NCBI GenBank assembly: GCA_963779415.1
Contig: CAVZYA010000001.1
Coordinates: forward strand, 864,001 to 928,000
DNA: 64,000 bases
Source of the DNA: an uncultured Acidobacteriota bacterium
GTDB taxonomy: Bacteria; Acidobacteriota; Thermoanaerobaculia; UBA5066
Reading direction: 5' to 3'
Under the pieces are notes generated by a model. That model was given only the letters and a program-made list of their open reading frames with translations. It had not been told where the DNA came from and made no database searches. The translations under genes were made by a program, and so were the position numbers. This document shows positions 41,785 through 50,247 of this stretch, in pieces. How positions within the stretch are numbered: position 1 is the first letter of the stretch; each line of letters starts with the position of its first letter.

Positions 41785-42495
41785 TCAGCCGGCTTTCGCG
41801 AGGTTTTCCGCGGCGAACTCCCAGTTGACCAGCTTCTCGAGATACGCGGTGATGTAGTCGGGGCGCCTGTTCTGCCAGTCCAGGTAGTAGGCATGCTCCC
41901 AGACGTCCATCGTCAGGAGCGGCGTGGCGGCGGTCGTGAGCGGCGTTTCGGCGTTCGGAGTCTTTGCGCACTTCAACTTTCCGCCGTCGAGAACGAGCCA
42001 GGCCCAGCCGCTGCCGAACTGGGTCACCCCGGTCGTCGCGAACTCCTTCTTGAAGTTCTCGAGCCCGCCGAAGTCCTTCTCGATCATCTCCTTCAGCTTC
42101 CCCGACGGAGAGCCGCCCCCCTTGGGCCTCATGCTCTTCCAGTAGAAGGTGTGGTTCCAGACCTGCGCCGCGTTGTTGAAGATCCCGGCCTTGTCGGGCT
42201 TCCCCGCGACGGCCCTGACGATCTTCTCGAGGGGCAGGTCGGCCAGCTCGGTCCCGGCGATCAGCTTGTTCGTGTTGTCCACGTATGCCTTGTGGTGCTT
42301 GCCGTAGTGGAAGGAGATCGTGTTCGCAGAGATCTCCGGGGCGAGGGCGTTGTCGGAGTACGGGAGAGGCGGAAGTTCGATCATCGAGGCTCCTTTCAGG
42401 ATTGCCGGCGAGCCGAGAACCACCGCCGCGGCGCCGGTCGCCACGACGAGGTCGCGTCGTGTGAGCATAGAGGATTCGCTCCGGCCGTTGGTCAT
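41785..42495 (-). CDS. sodB: Fe superoxide dismutase with twin-arginine signal
   Basis: TRRDLV Tat motif. HYGKHH, FNNAAQVWNH (Fe-type), FGSGWAW, DVWEHAYY. Confidence 0.9.
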   Translation of the reverse strand: MTNGRSESSMLTRRDLVVATGAAAVVLGSPAILKGASMIELPPLPYSDNALAPEISANTISFHYGKHHKAYVDNTNKLIAGTELADLPLEKIVRAVAGKPDKAGIFNNAAQVWNHTFYWKSMRPKGGGSPSGKLKEMIEKDFGGLENFKKEFATTGVTQFGSGWAWLVLDGGKLKCAKTPNAETPLTTAATPLLTMDVWEHAYYLDWQNRRPDYITAYLEKLVNWEFAAENLAKAG

Positions 42496-42573
42496 GGCTC
42501 CCCTTTTCGCATCCGCATCCCATTATCCGACGGAAAAAGCCGAGCGGATGCCCGCCGGCGCGGCTCGGAGGCC

Positions 42574-45012
42574 TCAGAAGAGAAACGTGAGCTTCCCGGC
42601 GACCGTCCGGGGCGGGATGACGTGGGTTCCGCCGAAGACGGACTGGAAATTATAGAGACCCTGAACGTCGAAGGCGTTGAGGAGGTCGACCTGAAGCTCG
42701 AGCGGAAGGCCATACTTCTGGAGGCCCGCGCCGATGGAAAAGTTCCAGATCGTCCGCGACTTCACGCGCTGAGGGTCCTCGTTGAAGTTGATGTAGGGAG
42801 CGGCATAGGCCGTGTCGGGGCTCGAGAGAACGTCCTGGATCGTCCCGGCGTCCGTGACGAGGCCCGAATCGTACCGCTGCGTCATGCCGACCCAGACCCC
42901 CGTGCTCCCGAAGTTGTAGAAGAGGCCCACCTGCTCCTGGATGTCCTGGTCGTGGTCGATGACGAAGCAACCGCCTTCGAGAGACGACAGAAAGTCGGCC
43001 GTCAGGAAGAGGCCGCCGACGTTCGGATTGCAATACACCGCGTGCACGTGTCCGATCGACGCGTACCCGTAAAGGCCGCCGAGGACGGGGGCCAGGTCGA
43101 GCCGGACGTTCCAGCCGTTCAGCTTCCCGCTCGCGAAGTTGAGAGGGAAGACGATGCCCGTATTGAAGAACTGGTCCTGATCGGCGGCGTTCGTCACGTT
43201 CCGGTACCAGTACGAGACGTCCAGCCGCAGCTTCGTCCCGATCCCCTGCTGGACCCCGACGTTGTAGACGTCGTGCCGCTCCGAGACGTTGTAGAGGTCG
43301 CCCCCCCCTAGCTGCGGCGCCTCCTGGATCTGGGGCGGGGCGATCGACGCCGCCTGGGGTGACGAGGAGAGAAGGATGTTCTCGTACTCCGGCGTAATGA
43401 ACATCCGGTCGTAGGAAGCCCGGAAGACGGTGTTCGTGGCCCCCAGGAAATAGGCGACGCCGACGCGAGGCTGGAGCTGGTGCTCGGATTCGAAGAGATA
43501 GTTGTGGTCGAACCGGATGCCGACATTCGCGGTCAGGTCGTTCCACCGGATGCTGTCCTGGAGAAATCCGGCGACGTAAGCGCCCGTCCTCGATCCCGTG
43601 AAGTAGAAGGGGGAGCCTCCCCGCGTTCCGTCGTACGGGGCGAGGTTCGGGTTGTAGCTCTCCGACGCCGGGTCGTTGTAGGCCGGGTCGGTCACGAGGA
43701 AGGAAAACTGCTCCGAGATCGGAAAGCGCTTCGCCTGGATGCCGGCCTTGAATTCGTTGATCCCGATCGTCTTCGACAGGGCGACGTTGAATCCCTGGTT
43801 CTCGAGCGACCGGTTCTGGTCCGCCTGGACAGGGGTGTCGAAGGACGACCCGTAGAGGATCAGGCGGTTGTCCCGCGCGTAGAGCTGTCCCTCCAGCACC
43901 CAGGCGTCCCCGAAGACGTGCTGGTAGCCGAGGTTGAGGTTCCAGTCGTTCGAGACCACCTGGTCGCTCTGCCCGGCCAGCTCCTGGGACGGGAGGTTCG
44001 TGACGTCGCGCTCCGTCCGCCCGAGGTTGGCGCTGAGCCTCCAGCTGTCCGATGCGCTCGCCGAGACCGAATCGAGGCGCACGAAGCCGCGTACCGCGCT
44101 TCCCGTGTTGTGGGAGTTGTCGAACGAGACTGGATCGAGAAACCGGTCGGAGCGCGAAGCGTCCGCGTCGGCGAACCAGCCGAACCGGCTGTCGCCCCCT
44201 CCGGCCGAGACCGAGCCGACTCCCGTCCCGAACGAGGCGCCTCCCAGGGAAACCTCGCCCCTGACTCCGTTGGTCCCGAGGCCCGACCGGGTCGTCAGGT
44301 TGATGACGCCATTCGCCTTCTCTCCGTATTCCGCCGGGATCCCCCCCGTGATGACCTCGACGCCCTCGGCGACTCCGGGATTGAGGGAGTTCGAGAACGT
44401 GATGCCGATCTGGTCTCCGATCGGCTGGCCGTCGACGACGAGGAGCTGCTGCGAGTGTCCTCCCTGGAAGTGGTACCGCCCGTTCTCGTCCTGCGAGAAG
44501 CCGGGGGTCGACGTCACGAGCGACTCGAAGGCCCGGCTCGGCATTCCGCCCGGGGACCGCCGGATGAGCGACTTGTCGATGTCCACGTGCGTGGACGGGT
44601 CGTCGGTCTCCAGCGCGACCGGCTCCTTCTCGGCCTCGACCGTGGTCGATGCCGTGGCCGAGAGGCTCAGGACGATGTCCCGGACCACCGGTGCGGAGCC
44701 TCTCACGTCCAGATCGGTGTGATAGGGAGCGAAGCCGTCCAGAGAGGCGGTGAGGTGATAGGGGTTGGCGGGGACGTTGTAGAGGAGGTAGGCACCGTCC
44801 AGCCCGGACGTCGCCTGCTGGCGATACCCGGTGATGTCATTCGTCAGGGCGATGCTCACGCCGGGGAGCGGCATGCCGTCGGGGCCGATGACGTGCCCCC
44901 GGACCCGGCCGGCAACGGCGGTCATTGCAGAGACGGGACGGGAGACGACGACGGCAACCAAGAGAAAGACGAGCGCAAACGCGACGCGGCGAGCGATGTC
45001 TCTGGGCCTCAT
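42574..45012 (-). CDS. TonB-dependent receptor with N-terminal carboxypeptidase-regulatory-like domain
   Basis: RBS AAGGAGG, signal peptide, plug motifs VDGQPI and ITGGIPAEYG..GVINL, PRVG, NAFD, terminal Phe. Confidence 0.92.
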   Translation of the reverse strand: MRPRDIARRVAFALVFLLVAVVVSRPVSAMTAVAGRVRGHVIGPDGMPLPGVSIALTNDITGYRQQATSGLDGAYLLYNVPANPYHLTASLDGFAPYHTDLDVRGSAPVVRDIVLSLSATASTTVEAEKEPVALETDDPSTHVDIDKSLIRRSPGGMPSRAFESLVTSTPGFSQDENGRYHFQGGHSQQLLVVDGQPIGDQIGITFSNSLNPGVAEGVEVITGGIPAEYGEKANGVINLTTRSGLGTNGVRGEVSLGGASFGTGVGSVSAGGGDSRFGWFADADASRSDRFLDPVSFDNSHNTGSAVRGFVRLDSVSASASDSWRLSANLGRTERDVTNLPSQELAGQSDQVVSNDWNLNLGYQHVFGDAWVLEGQLYARDNRLILYGSSFDTPVQADQNRSLENQGFNVALSKTIGINEFKAGIQAKRFPISEQFSFLVTDPAYNDPASESYNPNLAPYDGTRGGSPFYFTGSRTGAYVAGFLQDSIRWNDLTANVGIRFDHNYLFESEHQLQPRVGVAYFLGATNTVFRASYDRMFITPEYENILLSSSPQAASIAPPQIQEAPQLGGGDLYNVSERHDVYNVGVQQGIGTKLRLDVSYWYRNVTNAADQDQFFNTGIVFPLNFASGKLNGWNVRLDLAPVLGGLYGYASIGHVHAVYCNPNVGGLFLTADFLSSLEGGCFVIDHDQDIQEQVGLFYNFGSTGVWVGMTQRYDSGLVTDAGTIQDVLSSPDTAYAAPYINFNEDPQRVKSRTIWNFSIGAGLQKYGLPLELQVDLLNAFDVQGLYNFQSVFGGTHVIPPRTVAGKLTFLF

Positions 45013-45019
45013 GGGGATT

Positions 45020-45385
45020 CGAGCCTCCTTCTGATGAATCAGGCAGGAAAGGAGACCGCGGCAGGCGGCCTCCCGGACCACGGACGACGGGCGTCTCTAC
45101 GCGGCCGGGAGACGGGGCGGGGAACGCCCCGTGAGATCCGGAAGGGACGGCCGGGCGACAGGGGTCTCTGCAGACGGCACGACCCCGGGCACCGAGCCCG
45201 GCTGAGCGACGATTGTCGGACCGGCGGCACCTTCGTGGGCGCTCGCGAGAGCGCACGCGAGGCACGCTCCGTCCTGCGTTCCCGTCGCCGCAGCGTGGGC
45301 GTGAAGCCCTGCAAGCGCTGCCAGGAAGAGCGCGAGAAGCCCCGCGGAGAGGAGGCGACGCGCGAGTCCCCTCATGGGTTCGGGA
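45020..45385 (-). repeat. Copy A of a duplicated leader-ORF plus UTR module
   Basis: Near-identical to 48390..48758 over the uORF and the downstream UTR through the AAGGAGG SD. Confidence 0.85.
45097..45375 (-). CDS. Leader peptide, DUF2946/CruR-like (TM-HxH-CxxC-RSPP)
   Basis: LHAH, CLAC, GRSPP. Upstream of the TonB receptor and paralogous to 48470..48748. Confidence 0.8.
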   Translation of the reverse strand: MRGLARRLLSAGLLALFLAALAGLHAHAAATGTQDGACLACALASAHEGAAGPTIVAQPGSVPGVVPSAETPVARPSLPDLTGRSPPRLPAA

Positions 45386-45439
45386 ATTCTGGCAAGTGCG
45401 TCCTAGTCATCCGTCTCGTGCCCCGACAATTCGGTTTCC

Positions 45440-47893
45440 CTACTGCGGGAGGAGCGTCGCCGGGTCGTTCGTCCCGTTGTTGACGAGCGAGGCGAATCCC
45501 GTGAAGGTCGCTCCCGGAGTCGTCGTCCAGACGACGAGGGTCCCCGCCGATCCTTTTGGCGCCCCGACGCCCGTCGTGACGACCCGGTTGATCTGCGTCA
45601 TCCCGAGCTGCGCGAGTGTCACGCTCTGCGTCGTTCCGAGCTGCGTCCCGTCGTCGGCGTACAGGGCGTAACCGACGGTGATCGGGTAGGGGGTGACCCC
45701 TCCGTCCGGCGGCCCGTTCACGAGGACGAGGTTGGTCCTCACCTTGTCATCCTCGCGGACTCCCACGATCGCCACATTCGTCCCGGGCCGGAACCACGAC
45801 GCACTCGGGATCCCCGGCACGCTCTGGCCGAAGCGCCCCGGCCCGGATGGCGCCGGGGTCGTCGTCACGCTGTCGATGGCGAGACCCGGCGAGCTGCTCG
45901 TGACGAGGATGGCGCCGAAGTCCCGGTTCGACGAAAGGCCGAAGACAGAGCCGAGGACGTCGCGGAACGTGTAAGCCGTCTGCGGGTTCAGCGAGTAGCT
46001 CTTCGTCGGTCCCGTGCTTCCGTCGGGCGTCCCGAACGCGAGATAGCGCAGCGTCACGTTCGCCGACGTGGAGCCGACGTTCGCGAGGAAGAAGTCGGTG
46101 GTGTACATGGCCGGGGCTGCCACCGTGCCGCCGGCGGACCGGGCGACCGAGGGGACGATGAAGCTGGCGGCGCCGCTTCCGCCGAACCCGGTCGAGGCGA
46201 AGAGAGTCGCCGGGTCGTTCGTCCCGAGATTGTCGAGGAGGGAGGCGAAGGCCGTGAAGGCGCCCCCCGAGGTCGTCGTCGAGAGCGTGATCGTCGCGTT
46301 GGACGTGCTGCGGGTCCCCGTGATCGTCTGGATGACTCGGGGGAGCTGGGTCATCTCCAGCGGCTGCAGCGTCGGCGGCGTCAGCGTCCCGAGGTTCGCG
46401 CCGTTGTCGTCCCGGAGGCCGATCAGAACGTCGAGCGGCTGGTCGGTGGTGTTGACGAGGACGAGGTTCGTCCGGGCGGTGGAATCCTCACGGACTCCGG
46501 CGATCGCTCCCGGGGAGCCGGGCGAGATGAGCTGGGACGCCATCACCGCCGGAACGCTCTGGCCGAAGGCTCCCGTGCCGTCGGGCGTCGGGGTCGTCGT
46601 GACGCTCGAGACCTTCAGCGACGCCGAATTCGCGCTGACCCGGATCGCGCCGTAGTTGTTCCCCGTGAGGCCGAAAAGAGACGAGAGGACGTCCGCGTAG
46701 GTGAGGGCGTCCCCCGGGGCCACCGTCGCCGTCAGCTCGGGGCCCGAGGTCCCGTCCCCGTCGTGGCCGAGAAACTTGAATATCATGGTCGCGTCCGAGG
46801 ACCCTTCGTTCGCGACGAAGAGGTCCGTCGTGAAAAACGCCGGGGCGGCCGGCGTGCCGCCGGCCGTATGGGCGACCGATGCGACGTAGTAGTACGTCGG
46901 ACCGATCGGCGACGAGCCCCACCAGCCGATGTCCCGGAGGGCGTTCGGCGTGATGTCGACCCCGATCGGGAGATCGTCGTTGATGACCGGCTCCATCAGG
47001 ATGTCCGGGACGCACGACGTGTCCCAGTGCGACACGTTCGAGCCCGCCTGCACCGGGTTCGGCGCGTAGAGGAGCATCTGCCCGGCCGTGTTCATCCCCT
47101 TTCGCTGGACGAGGTACGCCGCCCCCGCCGCGTTCGCGGACGGGCCGGTCCAGACGAGGTTCCCCGTGTTGATCGCCGAAGCTTGCCGCTCGGCATCCGT
47201 CGCCATGTCGTTCCAGCTCTTCTTCGCCGTCGTGTCGTAGACGAAGGCGTCGAAAATGTCGGGCTGCGGCTGGTCTTGACAGCAGAACGTACCGGTCGTC
47301 TCGTCCGCGAGAGAGAGGAAGCCGAGGCCGTGGGCCGTCTCGTGAAGAGCGACCGTCAGGAGGTTGATGTCGCCGGAAGGGGTGTTCGTGTCGAAGCCGT
47401 AATAAAAATTGGTTCCGCTCAGGCAGCCGGACTGCCCCAGCATGCTGTTGAACTGCGTCGTCATGTATCCGACGTACCCTGCTTCGTAGGGGGGCTCGAG
47501 GTCGTAGCCCGCGAGCTGGCTCGCCTCGGCCACGACGTACCAGACGCCCGGGAGGACTCCGTCGGCGAAATCGGACTCGACGTAGTTCGGCGACGTCCCT
47601 CCGAGGACAGCCGTCGTCGATGAGCACGAGAGGGACTCGAAAGAGGCCCAAACGGTGATGTTGACGTTCCCGGGAAGGATGCCGCCCCAGATATCGGCGG
47701 CCTTTTGCAGCACGTTCATCCGCTGCTGGCCGATCGTCGTCCCGGGGTTTCCGCCGACGGGCGTGGCCGGTGTCGGGTCGTTCAGTCCCTGACCGGCGGC
47801 GTCCTTGTTGACGATCGTGATCGTCACGGCATGGGCGGGGAGGACGGCGAGAAAGACGAGAAGGACCGCGAGAAGAAGCGTCGTCCGGCGCAT
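45440..47893 (-). CDS. Secreted zinc metallopeptidase-like protein with C-terminal tandem repeat domains
   Basis: Signal peptide, NDPTP..PVGGNPGTT, HETAHGLGF (HEXXH), SHWD..LMEP. Two C-terminal repeats (TTDxFxAN / RTNLVLVN / FASL..N.GTNDP). Confidence 0.82.
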   Translation of the reverse strand: MRRTTLLLAVLLVFLAVLPAHAVTITIVNKDAAGQGLNDPTPATPVGGNPGTTIGQQRMNVLQKAADIWGGILPGNVNITVWASFESLSCSSTTAVLGGTSPNYVESDFADGVLPGVWYVVAEASQLAGYDLEPPYEAGYVGYMTTQFNSMLGQSGCLSGTNFYYGFDTNTPSGDINLLTVALHETAHGLGFLSLADETTGTFCCQDQPQPDIFDAFVYDTTAKKSWNDMATDAERQASAINTGNLVWTGPSANAAGAAYLVQRKGMNTAGQMLLYAPNPVQAGSNVSHWDTSCVPDILMEPVINDDLPIGVDITPNALRDIGWWGSSPIGPTYYYVASVAHTAGGTPAAPAFFTTDLFVANEGSSDATMIFKFLGHDGDGTSGPELTATVAPGDALTYADVLSSLFGLTGNNYGAIRVSANSASLKVSSVTTTPTPDGTGAFGQSVPAVMASQLISPGSPGAIAGVREDSTARTNLVLVNTTDQPLDVLIGLRDDNGANLGTLTPPTLQPLEMTQLPRVIQTITGTRSTSNATITLSTTTSGGAFTAFASLLDNLGTNDPATLFASTGFGGSGAASFIVPSVARSAGGTVAAPAMYTTDFFLANVGSTSANVTLRYLAFGTPDGSTGPTKSYSLNPQTAYTFRDVLGSVFGLSSNRDFGAILVTSSSPGLAIDSVTTTPAPSGPGRFGQSVPGIPSASWFRPGTNVAIVGVREDDKVRTNLVLVNGPPDGGVTPYPITVGYALYADDGTQLGTTQSVTLAQLGMTQINRVVTTGVGAPKGSAGTLVVWTTTPGATFTGFASLVNNGTNDPATLLPQ

Positions 47894-47897
47894 CTCG

Positions 47898-48383
47898 TCA
47901 CTTCTCCTCGGCGGCGGGCTTGGCCGCGGGGGCGGGGGCTTTCAGGGCTTCGCCGACCTTCGAAGCCGGCACGCACTCCTCGGAGAGCGTTCCGTCCGCG
48001 TTCTTCCGGACGACGGAATAACGGAAGTACTCGGGGCCTAGCTGCGCCCGCCTCCGCCCCGACGGGAGAGTTTCGACGGTCGTCGTCCGGACCCCCTTCG
48101 AGAAGGCCGGCTTGATCGCCGCCCCCGCGGCGCGAAGAGCCTCGATCTCCTTCGCCGTCGGCGCGCGAAGCTTCCCGGTGTCCGGATCCCTCACCACGAT
48201 CATCCGCGGTGCGGTCTTGCCGGCAGGCTCGGCGGCCGCCGGGGACTTCGGCGCGTCGCAGGCTGGCACAGTTTCCTTCGTGTCTCCTGCGAGAGCGCCA
48301 GTCGAGGCGAATAGAGCCCCCGCGAGAACCACCAATCCCGTCGGAGAAATCTTCATGCGGCAGGTACTGTTCCGGAGTGTCAT
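47898..48383 (-). CDS. Small secreted protein (RDPDTGKLRAPT motif, post-PEP-CTERM-1-like)
   Basis: SD AAGGAGG 10 nt upstream, signal peptide, VVRDPDTGKLRAPT, YSVVRKNADGTL..EC. Alternative start at 48356. Confidence 0.75.
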   Translation of the reverse strand: MTLRNSTCRMKISPTGLVVLAGALFASTGALAGDTKETVPACDAPKSPAAAEPAGKTAPRMIVVRDPDTGKLRAPTAKEIEALRAAGAAIKPAFSKGVRTTTVETLPSGRRRAQLGPEYFRYSVVRKNADGTLSEECVPASKVGEALKAPAPAAKPAAEEK

Positions 48384-48389
48384 GACCTT

Positions 48390-48758
48390 CGGGCCTCCTT
48401 CCGAATGACGAATCAGGGAGGGAGACCGCAGCAGGCGGCCTCCCGGACCACGGACGACGACGACCGTCTCTACGCGGCCGGGAGGAAAGGCGGGGAACGC
48501 CCCGTCAGATCCGGGAGGGAGGGCCGGGCGGGAGGAAGATCGGCGGAAGGTACGACCCCGGGCACCGAGTCCGGTTGGGGGACGATTGTCGGGCCGGTGG
48601 CACCCTCGTGGGCGCTCGCGAGAGCACACGCGAGGCAAGATCCGTCCTCCCCTCCCACCGTCGCCGCATGGACATGAAGCCCAGCAAGCGCCGTCAGGAA
48701 GAGCGCGAGAAGCCCCGCGGTGAGTAAGCGGCGCCCGAATCCCCTCATGGGTGACAGA
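48390..48758 (-). repeat. Copy B of the duplicated leader-ORF plus UTR module
   Basis: Near-identical to 45020..45385. Confidence 0.85.
48470..48748 (-). CDS. Leader peptide, DUF2946/CruR-like (TM-HxH-CxxC-RSPP)
   Basis: LHVH, CLAC, GRSPP. Same 92-aa length as 45097..45375 with the frame preserved. Confidence 0.8.
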   Translation of the reverse strand: MRGFGRRLLTAGLLALFLTALAGLHVHAATVGGEDGSCLACALASAHEGATGPTIVPQPDSVPGVVPSADLPPARPSLPDLTGRSPPFLPAA

Positions 48759-48775
48759 AGTCTAGCAAACGGGTC

Positions 48776-49582
48776 TCAGTCCCCCCTCTGGCGACGCGAG
48801 AGAAGAAAGGCCGCGACGAAGAGAACGGCCCCGAGGAGGATGATGGCCGCCCCCGACGCGACGTTCAGGGCGACGGAGAGGAAGAGGCCCCCGAGGACCA
48901 TGACGAGGGCCGCGCCGATGGAGCCCGAGAGGAGCCCGGGCCACCGGTCGAAGAGGGTCCGTGCGGTGGCCCCCGGAAGGACGAGGAGGGCCGCGACGAG
49001 GAGGATGCCGACGACCTTCAGCGCGACGACGACCGCGAGCGAGATCAGGACGAGGACGAGGAGGCGCATCGCCCCGACGTTCACGCCGGCGGCCCGGGCG
49101 CCGTCCTCGTCCACGGAGGCGAGGAGAAGCGGCCGGAACCAGGCCGCGAAGACCACGAGGACGGCGAGCGCGGTGCCGACGAGGATCGCGAGGTCGGCGG
49201 GGCTGACCGTCAGGATGTTCCCGAACATCAGGCCGAAAAGGTCGACGTTCGTCTTCACGAAGCCGAGGGCCACGACGCCGACAGCCATCGCCGCCACCGT
49301 GGACACGCCGATGGCGGCGTCCTCCGAGACTCCCGAAGCTTCCGACGCGTGGGCCGTCGCCAGCGCCACGACGAGCGCGGCGACGAGCGCTCCGGGGCCG
49401 GGCGGGAGGCCCGCCAGCGTCGCCACGGCCACGCCTCCGAAGGCCGCATGCGCCACCCCCGATCCCGCGAAGGCGAGCCGCCGGAGGACGACGAAGAAGG
49501 AAAGCGCCCCGCAGAGGACCGCCGCCACGACGCCCGCGACGAGCGCCCGCTGGAAGAACGGGTAGGCGAGGAACTCGATCAC
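48776..49582 (-). CDS. znuB: Zn/Mn ABC permease
   Basis: FFQRAL, VAHAAFGG, DAAIG, FGNIL, VVGILLV. Confidence 0.85.
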   Translation of the reverse strand: MIEFLAYPFFQRALVAGVVAAVLCGALSFFVVLRRLAFAGSGVAHAAFGGVAVATLAGLPPGPGALVAALVVALATAHASEASGVSEDAAIGVSTVAAMAVGVVALGFVKTNVDLFGLMFGNILTVSPADLAILVGTALAVLVVFAAWFRPLLLASVDEDGARAAGVNVGAMRLLVLVLISLAVVVALKVVGILLVAALLVLPGATARTLFDRWPGLLSGSIGAALVMVLGGLFLSVALNVASGAAIILLGAVLFVAAFLLSRRQRGD

Positions 49583-50247
49583 CGCGGTGCCTCCACCGGC
49601 TCCTCCGTGACGACCCCGTCCACACGGAAGAGGGCGTCCGCCCCCCCCATCGAATCCGTGTCGTGGGAGACGAAGAGAATGGTCCGCCCAGCCGCCGTCT
49701 CCTCGGCGATGACGCGGCGAAGGGTCATGAGCCCGTTCGAGTCGAGGGCCGTGTCGGGCTCGTCGAGGACGAGCATCGCGGGGCTTCCCGCGAGCGCCCT
49801 CGCGAGCAGAACCCTCTGGCGCTGCCCGCCGGAGAGCTTCCCCACCGGGCGGTCGAGCGTCTCCGCAGGAAGACCAGCCCGGAGGAGGGCGGCGCGGGCT
49901 TCGCCCCGCGCCTCGTCGCGGCGCCCGAACCCCGGGCGCGGGTCGAGCGAGAGGGCCACGAGATCGACGCCGGAGACGGGAGCCAGCGCCGAGAGGGTCG
50001 AGCGCTGCGAGAGATATCCGACGCGGGGACGAGGGACCTCGCGTCCCGATTCGTCCACGAAAACGACCCGGCCCGAATCGGCCGCGATCGCACCGACGAG
50101 AACGCGAACGAGCGTCGTCTTCCCCCCGCCGTTCGGCCCGACGAGGGCGGTCCGGACGCCGGGAGGAACCGAGAAGGAGACGTCCCGGAGGACCGGACGC
50201 CCGCCGAGCGACGCCGTGATTCCCTCGAAACGGATGCCGACTCTCAA
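49579..50247 (-). CDS. znuC: Zn/Mn ABC ATP-binding protein
   Basis: TTG start overlapping the upstream stop. GPNGGGKTT, LSGGQRQR, LDEP, VSHD. Confidence 0.85.
   Translation of the reverse strand: MRVGIRFEGITASLGGRPVLRDVSFSVPPGVRTALVGPNGGGKTTLVRVLVGAIAADSGRVVFVDESGREVPRPRVGYLSQRSTLSALAPVSGVDLVALSLDPRPGFGRRDEARGEARAALLRAGLPAETLDRPVGKLSGGQRQRVLLARALAGSPAMLVLDEPDTALDSNGLMTLRRVIAEETAAGRTILFVSHDTDSMGGADALFRVDGVVTEEPVEAPR

What the first reader, a model, noticed from the sequence alone, without database searches (positions are those of the whole stretch)
45012..45126. Four-segment RNA switch linking RSPP stalling to SD exposure, conserved in both copies
Seen on the minus-strand mRNA of copy A: segment 1 CUCCCGGCCGC (45111-45101, codons just after RSPP) can pair with segment 2 GUGGUCCGGGAG (45081-45070). 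Segment 3 GUCUCCUU (45056-45049) can then pair with the SD AAGGAGGC (45030-45023), the OFF state. Alternatively GGAGGCCGC in segment 2 pairs with GCGGUCUCC in segment 3 as a 9-bp stem with a 5-nt loop, freeing the SD (ON). A ribosome stalled at the PP codons (45120-45115) would cover segment 1 and favour 2:3. Copy B keeps all four segments (48484-48474, 48451-48435, 48429-48417, 48400-48394) while the loops differ. Inference: translational attenuation in which stalling switches the downstream gene on and metal-triggered release switches it off.
Basis: partly seen in the sequence, partly recalled or inferred. Interest (0 to 1): 0.85.

Follow-up and report, generated by a model that had tools for sequence, protein, structure and literature searches.

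The report
Arrest-peptide uORF with four-segment mRNA relay
Two small upstream genes that resemble known metal-sensing ribosome-stalling peptides are each followed by an mRNA spacer that can fold in two ways, hiding or exposing the start signal of the next gene; this extends a known kind of regulation to a new bacterial group.

Summary

**What the two 92-aa ORFs are.** They are divergent CruR/CutF-type upstream ORFs. Each has an export signal, a CxxC motif, then exactly 42 residues, then G-R-S-P-P. They lie in a Thermoanaerobaculia genome and head outer-membrane gene clusters. A profile found the family in 34 of 63 genomes of the taxonomic family.

**Support for the RNA relay.**
- Masking the footprint of a ribosome stalled at the Pro-Pro codons lowers the modelled cost of opening the SD (the ribosome-binding site). 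The drop is 3.5 kcal/mol on average in 42 family loci, against 0.2 in 149 control gene pairs.

**Against it.**
- Copy A, the reported locus, shows almost no modelled switch (6.9 to 6.7 kcal/mol).
- Its ortholog L032 carries uncompensated mismatches.
- The main helices show no double compensatory changes.
- A rho gene and a stretch richer in C than G leave the Rho-termination mechanism shown for CruR open.
- The metal response is by analogy only.

**Verdict.** Observation confirmed, interpretation partly supported. This is a new variant of a known kind.

The parts
45386..45394 (-). TGCCAGAAT, an extended -10-like element 10 nt upstream of the uORF A start codon, with no SD between. It suggests a leaderless or near-leaderless uORF mRNA.
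   Evidence: Read. A TAnnnT hexamer starts 11-16 nt before the start codon in 33 of 39 family loci, and an SD-like motif is absent in 33 of 39. The sigma-70 scan called no promoter. This is an inference.
45097..45375 (-). uORF A, 92 aa. It has a Sec-type signal (by inspection), H25/H27, C38xxC41, H47, 42 residues, G83-R-S-P-P87 and the tail RLPAA, then the stop codon.
   Evidence: No Pfam or NCBIfam family matched.
45115..45126 (-). R84-S85-P86-P87 codons (CGU UCC CCG CCC), the putative arrest site. [quoted passage not shown]
   Evidence: Coordinates. The motif is invariant in alignment A1. The stall geometry is taken from passages of PMC10951233. RSPP is reported as arrest-competent in passages of PMC12992588.
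45101..45114 (-). It lies in the last codons of uORF A and is complementary to segment 2.
45070..45081 (-). Segment 2 (GUGGUCCGGGAG). Its 3' part overlaps the 5' arm of the hairpin and resembles an SD.
   Evidence: It is homologous to CGGUCGGGAGG in the genus-g2 loci.
45051..45074 (-). The 2:3 hairpin, GGGAGGCCGC-CUGCC-GCGGUCUCC, 9-10 bp, -17.3 to -18.5 kcal/mol. This is the ON-state helix.
45049..45056 (-). Segment 3 (GUCUCCUU), the anti-SD, which pairs with segment 4 over 8 bp.
45023..45030 (-). Segment 4, the SD AAGGAGGC of the downstream gene. The start codon ATG is at 45012-45010.
42574..45012 (-). Downstream gene A, an 812-aa TonB-dependent-receptor-like outer-membrane protein (CarboxypepD_reg plus Plug domains).
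   Evidence: Only weak TonB_dep hits in NCBIfam.
48470..48748 (-). uORF B, 92 aa, 82% identical to uORF A. R-S-P-P codons at 48499-48488, tail FLPAA.
48394..48484 (-). Copy B relay: segment 1 at 48484-48474, segment 2 plus 5' arm at 48451-48435, 3' arm/segment 3 at 48429-48417, SD at 48400-48394, ATG at 48383-48381.
47898..48383 (-). Downstream gene B1, a 161-aa post-PEP-CTERM-1 domain protein. It is followed by an 817-aa protein (45440-47893) with a weak metalloprotease-family match.
   Evidence: NF047450, 87.7 bits, cut-off 28; NF038122, 39.1 bits, below its cut-off of 80.

Best explanation
Each copy is a regulatory upstream ORF of the CruR/CutF kind: a small exported protein whose nascent chain carries a metal-binding CxxC motif. 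Exactly 42 residues later it carries a RAPP-type arrest motif, here R-S-P-P.

The 84-86-nt spacer behind it works as an ermC-style four-segment translational attenuator.
- On free mRNA, the last codons of the uORF (segment 1) pair with an SD look-alike (segment 2). This leaves the anti-SD (segment 3) free to pair with the true SD (segment 4), so the downstream outer-membrane gene is poorly initiated.
[quoted passage not shown] Segment 2 then closes a 9-10-bp hairpin with segment 3, and the SD loses that partner.

What is shown and what is inferred:
- Shown here: the sequence features, their conservation and the modelled energetics.
- Inferred: that the ribosome really stalls, that a metal modulates the stall, in which direction, and that translation rather than transcription is the regulated step.
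For: uORF identity:
- CxxC and R[SA]PP are separated by exactly 42 residues in all 43 parsed family members. Of these, 39 passed the filter, L044 was counted under the id L035, and three were counted by hand.
- H25, H27, C38, C41, G83, R84, P86 and P87 are invariant in 14 sequences.
- RAPP replaces RSPP in P0007 and in 4 loci.
- P0007 touches Pfam DUF2946 weakly (E 0.03).
- The downstream genes are TonB-receptor-like and OEP efflux genes, as for CruR/CutF relatives (PMC9426467 results; PMC9973294 results).

Relay:
- 1:2 is far above chance in copies A and B.
- OFF is the MFE of copies A and B from the Arg codon to the AUG.
- Removing the stalled footprint shifts the balance to 2:3.
- RNAalifold gives 1:2 plus 3:4 as consensus in group I (A, B, L039, L032) and in group II (L055, L066, L070, L072, L073).
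- In group I, 3:4 has 5 one-sided pair-keeping changes and no broken pair. One pair reads G-C in copy B and A-U in L039.
- Segments 1 and 2 are alignable between the two genera.
- In group III the innermost hairpin pair changes C-G to U-A (L065/L076 against L075).

Family-wide modelling:
- The SD opening energy has a median of 9.0 kcal/mol free and 5.7 stalled. The mean drop is 3.5; it is at least 2 in 30 of 42 loci, at least 4 in 17 of 42, and at most -2 in 0 of 42.
- In 149 control gene pairs of the same genome the mean drop is 0.23; it is at least 4 in 8 pairs and at most -2 in 15.
- Mann-Whitney p is 9e-13, and 8e-11 on 28 crude group means. The loci are related, so these values overstate the case.

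Codon use:
- The first Pro codon of the motif is CCU in 27 of 42 loci, against 7.4% of 852 background Pro codons.
- Ser is UCU in 18 of 38, against 6.7%.
- Together this spells UCUCCUCC, an anti-SD word.
Against: - Copy A shows no modelled switch: 6.9 kcal/mol free against 6.4-6.7 stalled, equal to the genome median of 6.5. A local hairpin (UUCCUGCC...AGGAGGCUCGAA) replaces 3:4.
- L032, the ortholog of copy A, has a G-to-C change that breaks one pair of 1:2 and the closing pair of 2:3, with no compensation. Its OFF state is 8.4 kcal/mol worse than the MFE, and its 1:2 is no better than 389 of 3000 random words.
- In group I, no pair of 1:2 or 2:3 has a change on both sides. The shuffle control is uninformative (500 of 500).
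- The size of copy B's switch depends on the SD window chosen: 7.6 against 3.7 kcal/mol.
- With 87 nt of upstream context, copy B's SD is predicted to pair with a C/U tract further upstream, not with segment 3.
- In MFE structures of the stalled state, 4-8 of the 8 SD bases remain paired in 15 relay-type loci.
- The 2:3 and 3:4 helices are individually common in this GC-rich genome.
- A test of tail against intergenic duplex rank is only mildly enriched: 7 of 42 loci at p<=0.05.
- The codon bias could equally reflect rare-codon slowing.
- The stalled footprint reaches only part of segment 1.
- A C>G stretch over the 3' half of the uORF (8 of 8 loci examined) and a rho gene fit the Rho mechanism shown for CruR.
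Confidence: 0.5

Rival explanations
1. CruR-type transcriptional attenuation. The arrested ribosome shields a C-rich rut site in the 3' half of the uORF. When the stall is relieved, Rho loads and terminates in the spacer. The conserved hairpin serves as an RNA polymerase pause or structural element, and the SD pairings are secondary or incidental. This can also act together with the translational relay.
For: - It is the mechanism shown experimentally for the closest characterised relative, which also sits upstream of a TonB-dependent transporter (PMC9426467, results and discussion read).
- The 3' half of the uORF has C at 42-56% against G at 19-33% in all 8 loci examined.
- The genome encodes Rho (PF07497, 122.8 bits).
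- Copy A shows no modelled SD switch.
Against: - The C excess is also what Pro/Ser/Ala-rich coding gives.
- The spacers are short (57-119 nt) compared with 162 nt in Bordetella.
- This model does not explain why the 5' arm of the hairpin copies the letters of the true SD in many loci.
- It does not explain the family-wide SD unmasking signal.
- No tool here can test Rho dependence.
Confidence: 0.3
2. There is no dedicated relay. The uORF may still be an arrest peptide, but the complementarities are by-products of C/U-rich Pro/Ser/Leu codons meeting G-rich SD-like words in a 70% GC spacer. The conserved hairpin would then have another role, such as mRNA stability, a processing site, or a 3' end of the uORF transcript.
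For: - Hairpins and anti-SD complements of this strength occur in 26 and 16 of 149 control intergenic regions.
- Several C/U tracts compete for the SD in the models.
- The main helices of group I lack double compensatory changes.
- L032 tolerates mismatches.
Against: - 1:2 in copies A and B is matched by only 0.4-0.8% of random genome words.
- The same OFF consensus arises in two genera.
- The strong shift to CCU and UCU at the motif is hard to explain as a passive by-product.
- So is the absence of any locus with an SD-closing effect: 0 of 42, against 15 of 149 controls.
Confidence: 0.13
3. The 2:3 hairpin is an intrinsic terminator, and 1:2 is its anti-terminator. This would be classical transcription attenuation.
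For: A stable GC hairpin lies downstream of a leader ORF, and an alternative pairing (1:2) competes with its base.
Against: - No U tract follows the stem: UUUCCUGCC in copy A, CUCCCUGAU in copy B, GUCCGUGCC in L032.
- The terminator scan does not call it.
- The logic would be inverted, since stalling would favour the hairpin and so termination.
Confidence: 0.02

Closest known systems
CruR (Bordetella pertussis Bp2923, DUF2946), a copper-responsive upstream regulator of the TonB-dependent transporter gene bfrG (PMC9426467; abstract, results parts 2-3 and discussion read)
   Same: - A small ORF in first position, in front of a TonB-dependent transporter gene.
- An export signal and a CxxC motif.
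- An R-x-P-P arrest motif a few residues before the C terminus.
- Rigid spacing between the two motifs: 45 +/- 1-2 residues there, exactly 42 here.
- A C-rich 3' half of the ORF and a structured spacer.
   Different: - No hit to the Pfam DUF2946 model.
- RSPP instead of RAPP in most members.
- 92 aa against 145 aa.
- Spacer of 84-86 nt against 162 nt.
- A different phylum: that paper reports mostly Proteobacteria and a few Planctomycetes, Firmicutes and Deinococcus.
- CruR acts through Rho termination. No SD relay is described in the sections I read.
CutF of Rhodobacter capsulatus and 'CutF-like' proteins (PMC9973294: abstract, results part 3 and searched passages; bioRxiv 10.1101/2025.02.05.636593: abstract only)
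   Same: - An exported nascent sensor with a Cys motif and a C-terminal proline-rich stalling motif.
- Stalling melts mRNA structure that shields the SD of the next gene.
- It meets that paper's filters: under 150 aa, PP within the last 15 residues, and a same-strand neighbour with a short spacer.
- OEP and TonB-type neighbours.
   Different: - CxxC rather than CxxxC.
- CutF uses a single stem-loop holding the SD. Here the SD lies about 90 nt from the stall site and is reached through a relay of four segments, in 13 of 42 loci by the model. In 18 of 42 relatives the stall codons are predicted to pair with the SD directly.
- The direction of the metal effect is unknown here.
ermC-type (and cat-type) leader-peptide translational attenuation
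   Same: Four segments with 1:2 plus 3:4 against 2:3. The SD lies in segment 4. A ribosome stalled on the leader ORF over segment 1 frees the SD.
   Different: The stall would be set by an intrinsic RAPP-type arrest peptide with a metal-binding motif, not by a drug bound in the exit tunnel. The leader is a 92-aa exported protein, not a peptide of about 19 aa. The regulated genes are outer-membrane transport genes.
SecM-secA and the RAPP-type arrest peptides ApdA and ApdP (PMC10951233 and PMC12992588, searched passages)
   Same: [quoted passage not shown] The protein is small and exported, with the motif near the C terminus. The stall unfolds structure in front of the downstream gene.
   Different: Those monitor the protein-export machinery. 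Here the Cys/His motifs and the neighbouring genes point to metal homeostasis. RSPP is described there only as a partly permissive variant and as a motif that proteomes avoid.

Membership tests
CruR / Pfam DUF2946 (PF11162) | Match to the Pfam DUF2946 profile above its gathering score (23.7 bits) | tested here: not met
   No hit for copy A or B even at E<=10. No six-frame hit in the whole genome at E<=10. Only relative P0007 scores, at 15.5 bits and E 0.03.
CruR / Pfam DUF2946 (PF11162) | Invariant CXXC motif | tested here: met
   C38-L-A-C41 is invariant in A1 and A2. A C..C motif is present in all 43 parsed relatives.
CruR / Pfam DUF2946 (PF11162) | RAPP motif a few residues before the C terminus | tested here: inconclusive
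   Copies A and B carry RSPP followed by 5 residues. RAPP itself occurs in P0007 and in L065, L069, L075 and L076. RSPP is reported as partly arrest-competent (PMC12992588 passages). Arrest was not measured here.
CruR / Pfam DUF2946 (PF11162) | Spacing between CXXC and the arrest motif conserved to within 1-2 residues | tested here: met
   Exactly 42 residues in 43 of 43 members (and a hand count). The value is 45 in CruR.
CruR / Pfam DUF2946 (PF11162) | First gene of an operon with a metal-homeostasis or TonB-dependent transporter gene, followed by a long spacer | tested here: met
   A TonB-receptor-like gene follows copy A. TBDR-like and OEP genes follow relatives. A -10-like element sits directly upstream of the uORF in 33 of 39 loci. 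Spacers are 57-119 nt.
CruR / Pfam DUF2946 (PF11162) | Copper relieves the stall and triggers Rho-dependent termination | not testable with these tools
   Only permissive signs are available: a C>G stretch and a rho gene.
CutF-like proteins (filters of PMC9973294) | [quoted passage not shown] | tested here: met
   92 aa, PP at 86-87 of 92, spacer of 84-86 nt. The signal peptide (MRGLARRLLSAGLLALFLAALAGLHAHA) was judged by inspection only, as no predictor was available.
CutF-like proteins (filters of PMC9973294) | Stem-loop that shields the SD of the downstream gene and is opened by the stalled ribosome | tested here: inconclusive
   In silico the family shows unmasking. Copy B does (3.7-7.6 kcal/mol). 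Copy A does not (0.3). There is no experiment.
ermC-type four-segment translational attenuator | Mutually exclusive helices 1:2 plus 3:4 against 2:3, with the SD in segment 4 | tested here: met
   and the consensus folds.
ermC-type four-segment translational attenuator | The stalled ribosome physically occupies segment 1 | tested here: inconclusive
   With the first Pro codon (45120-45118) in the P site, a footprint reaching +12 to +15 nt ends at 45108-45105. That covers 4-7 of the 11 bases of segment 1. The footprint size is recalled, not measured.
Intrinsic (Rho-independent) terminator | GC-rich stem followed by a run of U | tested here: not met
   No U run follows the stem in A, B or L032. 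The scan does not call it.
Any Rfam family | Covariance-model match | tested here: not met
   In 42000-50000 at E<=1 there was only a sub-threshold Guanidine-III match at 47265-47328 (20.2 bits against 36), and nothing at the finding.

The most novel reading that the evidence does not exclude
A whole clade of Thermoanaerobaculia uses one leaderless, exported, metal-binding arrest peptide with a fixed 42-residue ruler as a universal front end for outer-membrane import and efflux genes. The mRNA itself converts ribosome dwell time into translation initiation. In some loci this is direct, because the UCU-CCU-CCU arrest codons are the anti-SD. In others, as in this window, it runs through an ermC-like relay in which a decoy SD and an anti-SD form the ON hairpin. 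This would be the first relay-type translational attenuator driven by a metal-sensing nascent chain, and the first such system outside the phyla reported so far.
Probability: 0.35. Interest if true: 0.7.

Novelty: new variant of a known kind. Interest (0 to 1): 0.55.

Why it matters
CruR and CutF established that a nascent exported peptide can sense a metal and set expression of the next gene. They gave two different read-outs: Rho termination and melting of a stem-loop.

This locus family would extend that in several ways:
- It would take the principle into Acidobacteriota, with members that the Pfam model does not detect.
- It shows an exact 42-residue ruler between the sensor motif and the arrest motif.
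- It offers natural 'direct' and 'relay' mRNA designs side by side in close relatives. That makes it directly testable how a stall is coupled to initiation over about 90 nt.
- The same uORF type precedes both TonB-receptor-like and OEP efflux genes. This sharpens the open question of how one sensor could serve both uptake and export.

If the relay proves not to work, the result is still an annotation gain: 43 unannotated regulatory uORFs in 34 of 63 genomes of the family.

Tried and rejected
**Searches that found little or nothing**
- Rfam: nothing at the finding.
- Promoter and terminator scan: no promoter, and no terminator at the hairpin.
- Single-sequence searches were nearly blind to the family.
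  - 6 hits among 45 candidates in the 5.8-billion-protein set.
  - 2 representatives.
  - In the phylum scan, 30 of 401 genomes matched at E<=0.01, and all foreign hits were weak (best 1.2e-4). I first took these for noise. Some, such as G154 and G246, proved real once the profile A2 was used.
- The search for related loci in genome contigs found nothing twice.
- DUF2946 gave no hit in the genome.

**Tests that were weak or uninformative**
- Duplex rank of tail against intergenic region: 7 of 42 loci at p<=0.05, median p 0.27. The test allows large loops, and I judge it to have little power.
- My first duplex test used only the 10-nt 5' arm and showed nothing special: 26 of 71 windows did as well in copy A. 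I replaced it with the test on the full segment 2.
- The count of structure pairs on the 2:3 hairpin of group I: 37 of 40 cells paired and no covariation.
- MAFFT alignments A3 and A4 put L055 and the GGUC(C)GGGAGG stretch one column out of register. I therefore built no covariance model and ran no cross-group pair count. The cross-genus comparison of helix 1:2 was done by eye.

**Sequencing runs**
- No RNA holder is listed. The 12 listed runs hold 5-10% of the words.
- Laying 4 runs at 80% likeness gave 16 contig pieces from relatives. The 40 rows of differences that were shown include none between 45049 and 45132, but 46 rows were hidden. I draw no conclusion from this.

**Loci left out of counts**
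- Six loci had no complete motif under my regular expression and were dropped: L063, L077, L078, L079, L082, L083.
- L071 was dropped from the RNA counts because no downstream start was found.
- L044, L067 and L074 were dropped from the promoter count by the start-codon filter.
- In L039 the ATG homologous to copy B's start opens only 18 codons. I used it for the RNA analysis by homology.

**Tools and material not available**
- Supplements were closed. Table S1 and Fig. S3 of PMC9426467, and Figs S5-S7 and File S1 of PMC9973294, may list Acidobacteriota members or spacer RNA motifs that bear on novelty.
- My literature searches used these terms: CutF with ribosome stalling and copper, RAPP motif with arrest peptide, and DUF2946. 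'Acidobacteri' has 0 occurrences in the main text of PMC9973294. This does not show that the relay is unpublished.

Full report
**1. The observation.** On the minus strand, the ORF at 45375-45097 encodes 92 residues ending ...PSLPDLTGRSPPRLPAA. A paralog at 48748-48470 (82% identical) ends ...GRSPPFLPAA. The downstream start codons are ATG 45012-45010 and ATG 48383-48381. Each is preceded by AAGGAGG.

**2. What the ORFs are.** Neither ORF matches any Pfam or NCBIfam model.
- They are nearly orphan to single-sequence searches: 6 hits in 5.8 billion proteins and 2 cluster representatives.
- One hit is named by its source as coming from a Thermoanaerobaculia bacterium.
- The alignment shows an N-terminal hydrophobic signal. 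Its Sec-type character with an AHA cleavage site is my reading by inspection.
- It also shows invariant H25 and H27, D-G-x-C-L-A-C, H47, and an invariant C-terminal block PS(L/I)PxLTGRSPP.
- Relative P0007 carries RAPP in place of RSPP and is the only member that touches Pfam DUF2946 (E 0.03, below threshold).
- A profile built from 14 members then found the family in 34 of 63 genomes of the same taxonomic family: 28 of 29 in genus g2 and 2 of 7 other genomes of the window's genus.
- From 49 loci I parsed 43 complete uORFs. All 43 have exactly 42 residues between CxxC and R[SA]PP (and a hand count of three), although their N-terminal lengths differ and identity to copy A falls to 33-35%.

**3. 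Comparison with the literature.**
- CruR of Bordetella pertussis is a DUF2946 uORF in front of a TonB-dependent transporter gene. [quoted passage not shown] Copper relieves the arrest, and Rho then terminates in the 162-nt spacer (PMC9426467; abstract, results parts 2-3 and discussion read).
- CutF of Rhodobacter capsulatus is a related exported sensor. Copper prolongs its stall, and this melts a stem-loop that shields the SD of cutO. CutF-like genes most often precede OEP efflux genes and then TonB-type genes (PMC9973294; abstract, results part 3 and passages).
- RSPP is reported as a partly permissive variant, as an arrest sequence from random screens, and as a motif that proteomes avoid (PMC12992588 passages).
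- The genes here fit that picture. Copy A precedes a CarboxypepD_reg plus Plug TonB-receptor-like protein. Relatives precede the same kind of receptor, an unassigned outer-membrane protein family, or OEP efflux proteins (four loci, E down to 7.5e-60).
- I therefore read the ORFs as divergent CruR/CutF-type regulatory uORFs with high confidence.

**4. The RNA in copies A and B.** These figures come from folding the stretch from the Arg codon onward; fold to 12 nt past the AUG.

| Helix | Size | Energy alone (kcal/mol) |
|---|---|---|
| 1:2 | 11 bp | -19.4 |
| 2:3 | 9 bp | -17.3 |
| 3:4 core | 6 bp | -6.5 |

- In copy A the best OFF structure (-48.1) and the best structure with 2:3 (-49.7) are nearly isoenergetic. 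Without the downstream 12 nt, OFF is the MFE of both copies.
- After removing the 22 nt that a ribosome stalled at the Pro-Pro codons would hold, 2:3 is preferred over 3:4 by 6.7 kcal/mol in copy A and by 1.4 in copy B.
- The output does not, in copy A. The energy to open the 8-nt SD is 6.9 kcal/mol free and 6.4-6.7 stalled, because a local imperfect hairpin replaces 3:4.
- In copy B the energy drops from 8.7 to 0.6-1.1, or to 5.0 with an SD window shifted by one base.

**5. Controls from the same genome.** I took 149 same-strand gene pairs with spacers of 50-130 nt.
- Their SD opening energy has a median of 6.5 kcal/mol. Copy A's SD is therefore ordinary in both states.
- Masking the last part of the upstream gene changes the value by 0.23 on average. 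The change is at least 4 in 8 pairs and at most -2 in 15.
- Hairpins of -17 or better occur in 26 of 149 control spacers. Anti-SD complements of -13 or better occur in 16 of 149.
- Only 1:2 stands out. It is matched by 11 (copy A) and 24 (copy B) of 3000 random genome 21-mers.

**6. Relatives.** L032 is a metagenome ortholog of copy A.
- It keeps the hairpin (8 bp) but carries a G-to-C change in segment 2. This breaks a pair in 1:2 and the closing pair of 2:3.
- Its OFF state is 8.4 kcal/mol above the MFE, and it shows no modelled switch.

L039 comes from the same genus and is a homolog of copy B.
- It keeps segments 1 and 2 unchanged.
- Its 3' arm (GCAGCCUCCC) and its SD (GGGGGC) both differ from copy B, yet they still pair.

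Five loci of genus g2 (L055, L066, L070, L072, L073) have alignable homologs of segment 1 (..CCCGACCGCGUAG) and segment 2 (CGGUCGGGAGG). They also have a hairpin whose 5' arm, GGGAGGC, repeats the letters of their true SD, while the 3' arm is GCCUCCC.

RNAalifold was given only the sequences. It returns 1:2 plus 3:4 as the consensus for this group and for the group A/B/L039/L032.
- In group I, 3:4 has five pair-keeping one-sided changes, no broken pair, and one position that reads G-C in copy B and A-U in L039.
- 1:2 has one broken cell (L032).
- 2:3 has 37 of 40 cells paired and no covariation.
- A third group (L065, L075, L076) places segment 1 on the R-A-P-P codons themselves. It shows a C-G to U-A exchange at the innermost hairpin pair.

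**7. The family as a whole (42 loci with a downstream start).**
- The modelled SD opening energy has a median of 9.0 free and 5.7 with the stalled footprint masked.
- The drop averages 3.5 kcal/mol. It is at least 2 in 30 loci, at least 4 in 17, and never -2 or below.
- Against the controls, Mann-Whitney p is 9e-13, and 8e-11 on 28 crude group means. The loci are related, so these values overstate the evidence.
- A ribosome placed six codons upstream does not open the SD. The mean further drop on moving to the stall site is 3.0, against -0.22 in the controls.

By predicted partner of the SD in free mRNA, the loci fall into these classes:

| Main predicted partner of the SD (pair probability > 0.5) | Loci |
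|---|---|
| Region inside the stalled footprint ('direct') | 18 |
| Spacer ('relay'; includes copy A) | 13 |
| Sequence upstream of the footprint (includes copy B and L032 in this 87-nt context) | 5 |
| Sequence downstream | 2 |
| Mixed | 4 |

Consistent with an RNA-level role of the arrest codons, the first Pro codon is CCU in 27 of 42 loci, against 7.4% of 852 Pro codons in the downstream genes and 6.2% of 576 elsewhere in the uORFs. Ser is UCU in 18 of 38, against 6.7%. Selection for rare codons would give the same bias.

**8. The Rho alternative.**
- All 8 loci examined have a marked C>G stretch (C 42-56%, G 19-33% in 78-nt windows) over the 3' half of the uORF up to the stop codon.
- The genome encodes Rho.
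- This is what CruR uses, and I cannot test it. It may act alone or together with SD masking, since an untranslated downstream gene is itself prone to Rho polarity.
- The hairpin is not an intrinsic terminator. No U run follows it and the scan does not call it.

**9. Verdict.**
- The identity of the uORFs as RAPP-type arrest peptides with a Cys motif is well supported, and so is the alternative-pairing architecture.
- That the architecture transmits a stall to the SD is supported statistically for the family and in the model for copy B. It is not supported in the model for copy A or for L032.
- The metal, its direction of action, and the balance between translational and Rho-dependent control are inferred only.
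- I rate this a new variant of a known kind. It is a CruR/CutF-type system in Acidobacteriota that the Pfam model does not detect. It uses RSPP and a 42-residue ruler. In part of the family it has an ermC-like relay in place of a single stem-loop.
- I give about 0.5 to the relay being functional, 0.3 to a mainly Rho-based read-out, and the rest to no dedicated RNA switch.

Noticed in passing
window 45386-45394 (copy A), 48759-48767 region (copy B); family loci L039-L084: The uORFs seem to be leaderless or nearly so. A TAnnnT hexamer (TAGACT, TAAGAT, TAGAAT, TAAACT) starts 11-16 nt before the start codon in 33 of 39 loci, and no SD-like motif lies in between in 33 of 39. Most starts in genus g2 are GTG.
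   Followed up: partly
arrest-motif codons of 42 family loci (copy A 45126-45115): There is strong codon bias at S-P-P. The first Pro is CCU in 27 of 42 loci and the second Pro in 22 of 42. UCU Ser occurs in 18 of 38, against about 7% background. This spells UCUCCUCC. Copies A and B do not share the bias: they use UCC CCG CCC and UCC CCG CCU.
   Followed up: partly
loci L047, L057, L068, L080 versus window 42574-45012: The same uORF family precedes OEP (TolC/CusC-like) efflux genes as well as TonB-receptor-like genes. How one sensor type could serve both export and import is unexplained.
   Followed up: no
window 41785-42495 (-) and 42541-42556: An Fe/Mn superoxide dismutase gene with an N-terminal extension lies directly behind the TonB-receptor-like gene. 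A terminator-like hairpin with a T run sits between them. The metal sensed need not be copper.
   Followed up: no
window 45440-48383 (-): Copy B heads a post-PEP-CTERM-1 domain protein (161 aa, NF047450 at 87.7 bits). An 817-aa protein follows, with only a sub-threshold match to the NF038122 metalloprotease family and no similarity to the TonB-receptor-like protein.
   Followed up: partly
L032 1-1036 compared with window 48749-48900 and 45376-45525: L032 resembles copy B upstream of the uORF and copy A downstream of it. The window therefore looks like a tandem duplication of the uORF plus spacer, with a two-gene cassette between the copies.
   Followed up: partly
L039 (same genus), downstream of the uORF: The ATG homologous to copy B's start opens only 18 codons before a stop. 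A GTG in another frame opens the long ORF. This may be a frameshift in that assembly or a different start.
   Followed up: no
loci L040, L041, L044, L046 and others ('TGNVFNPN' neighbour group): In this group the spacer forms one long stem. Its base runs from just after the stop codon (ACGUCG) to CGUCACGUU just before the SD, and the SD is predicted to pair with the arrest codons directly. One A-U to G-C compensatory change is seen between L034 and L035 by eye.
   Followed up: partly
window 47265-47328 (-): A sub-threshold Guanidine-III riboswitch match (20.2 bits against a gathering score of 36, E 0.85) lies inside the 817-aa ORF. It is most likely chance.
   Followed up: no
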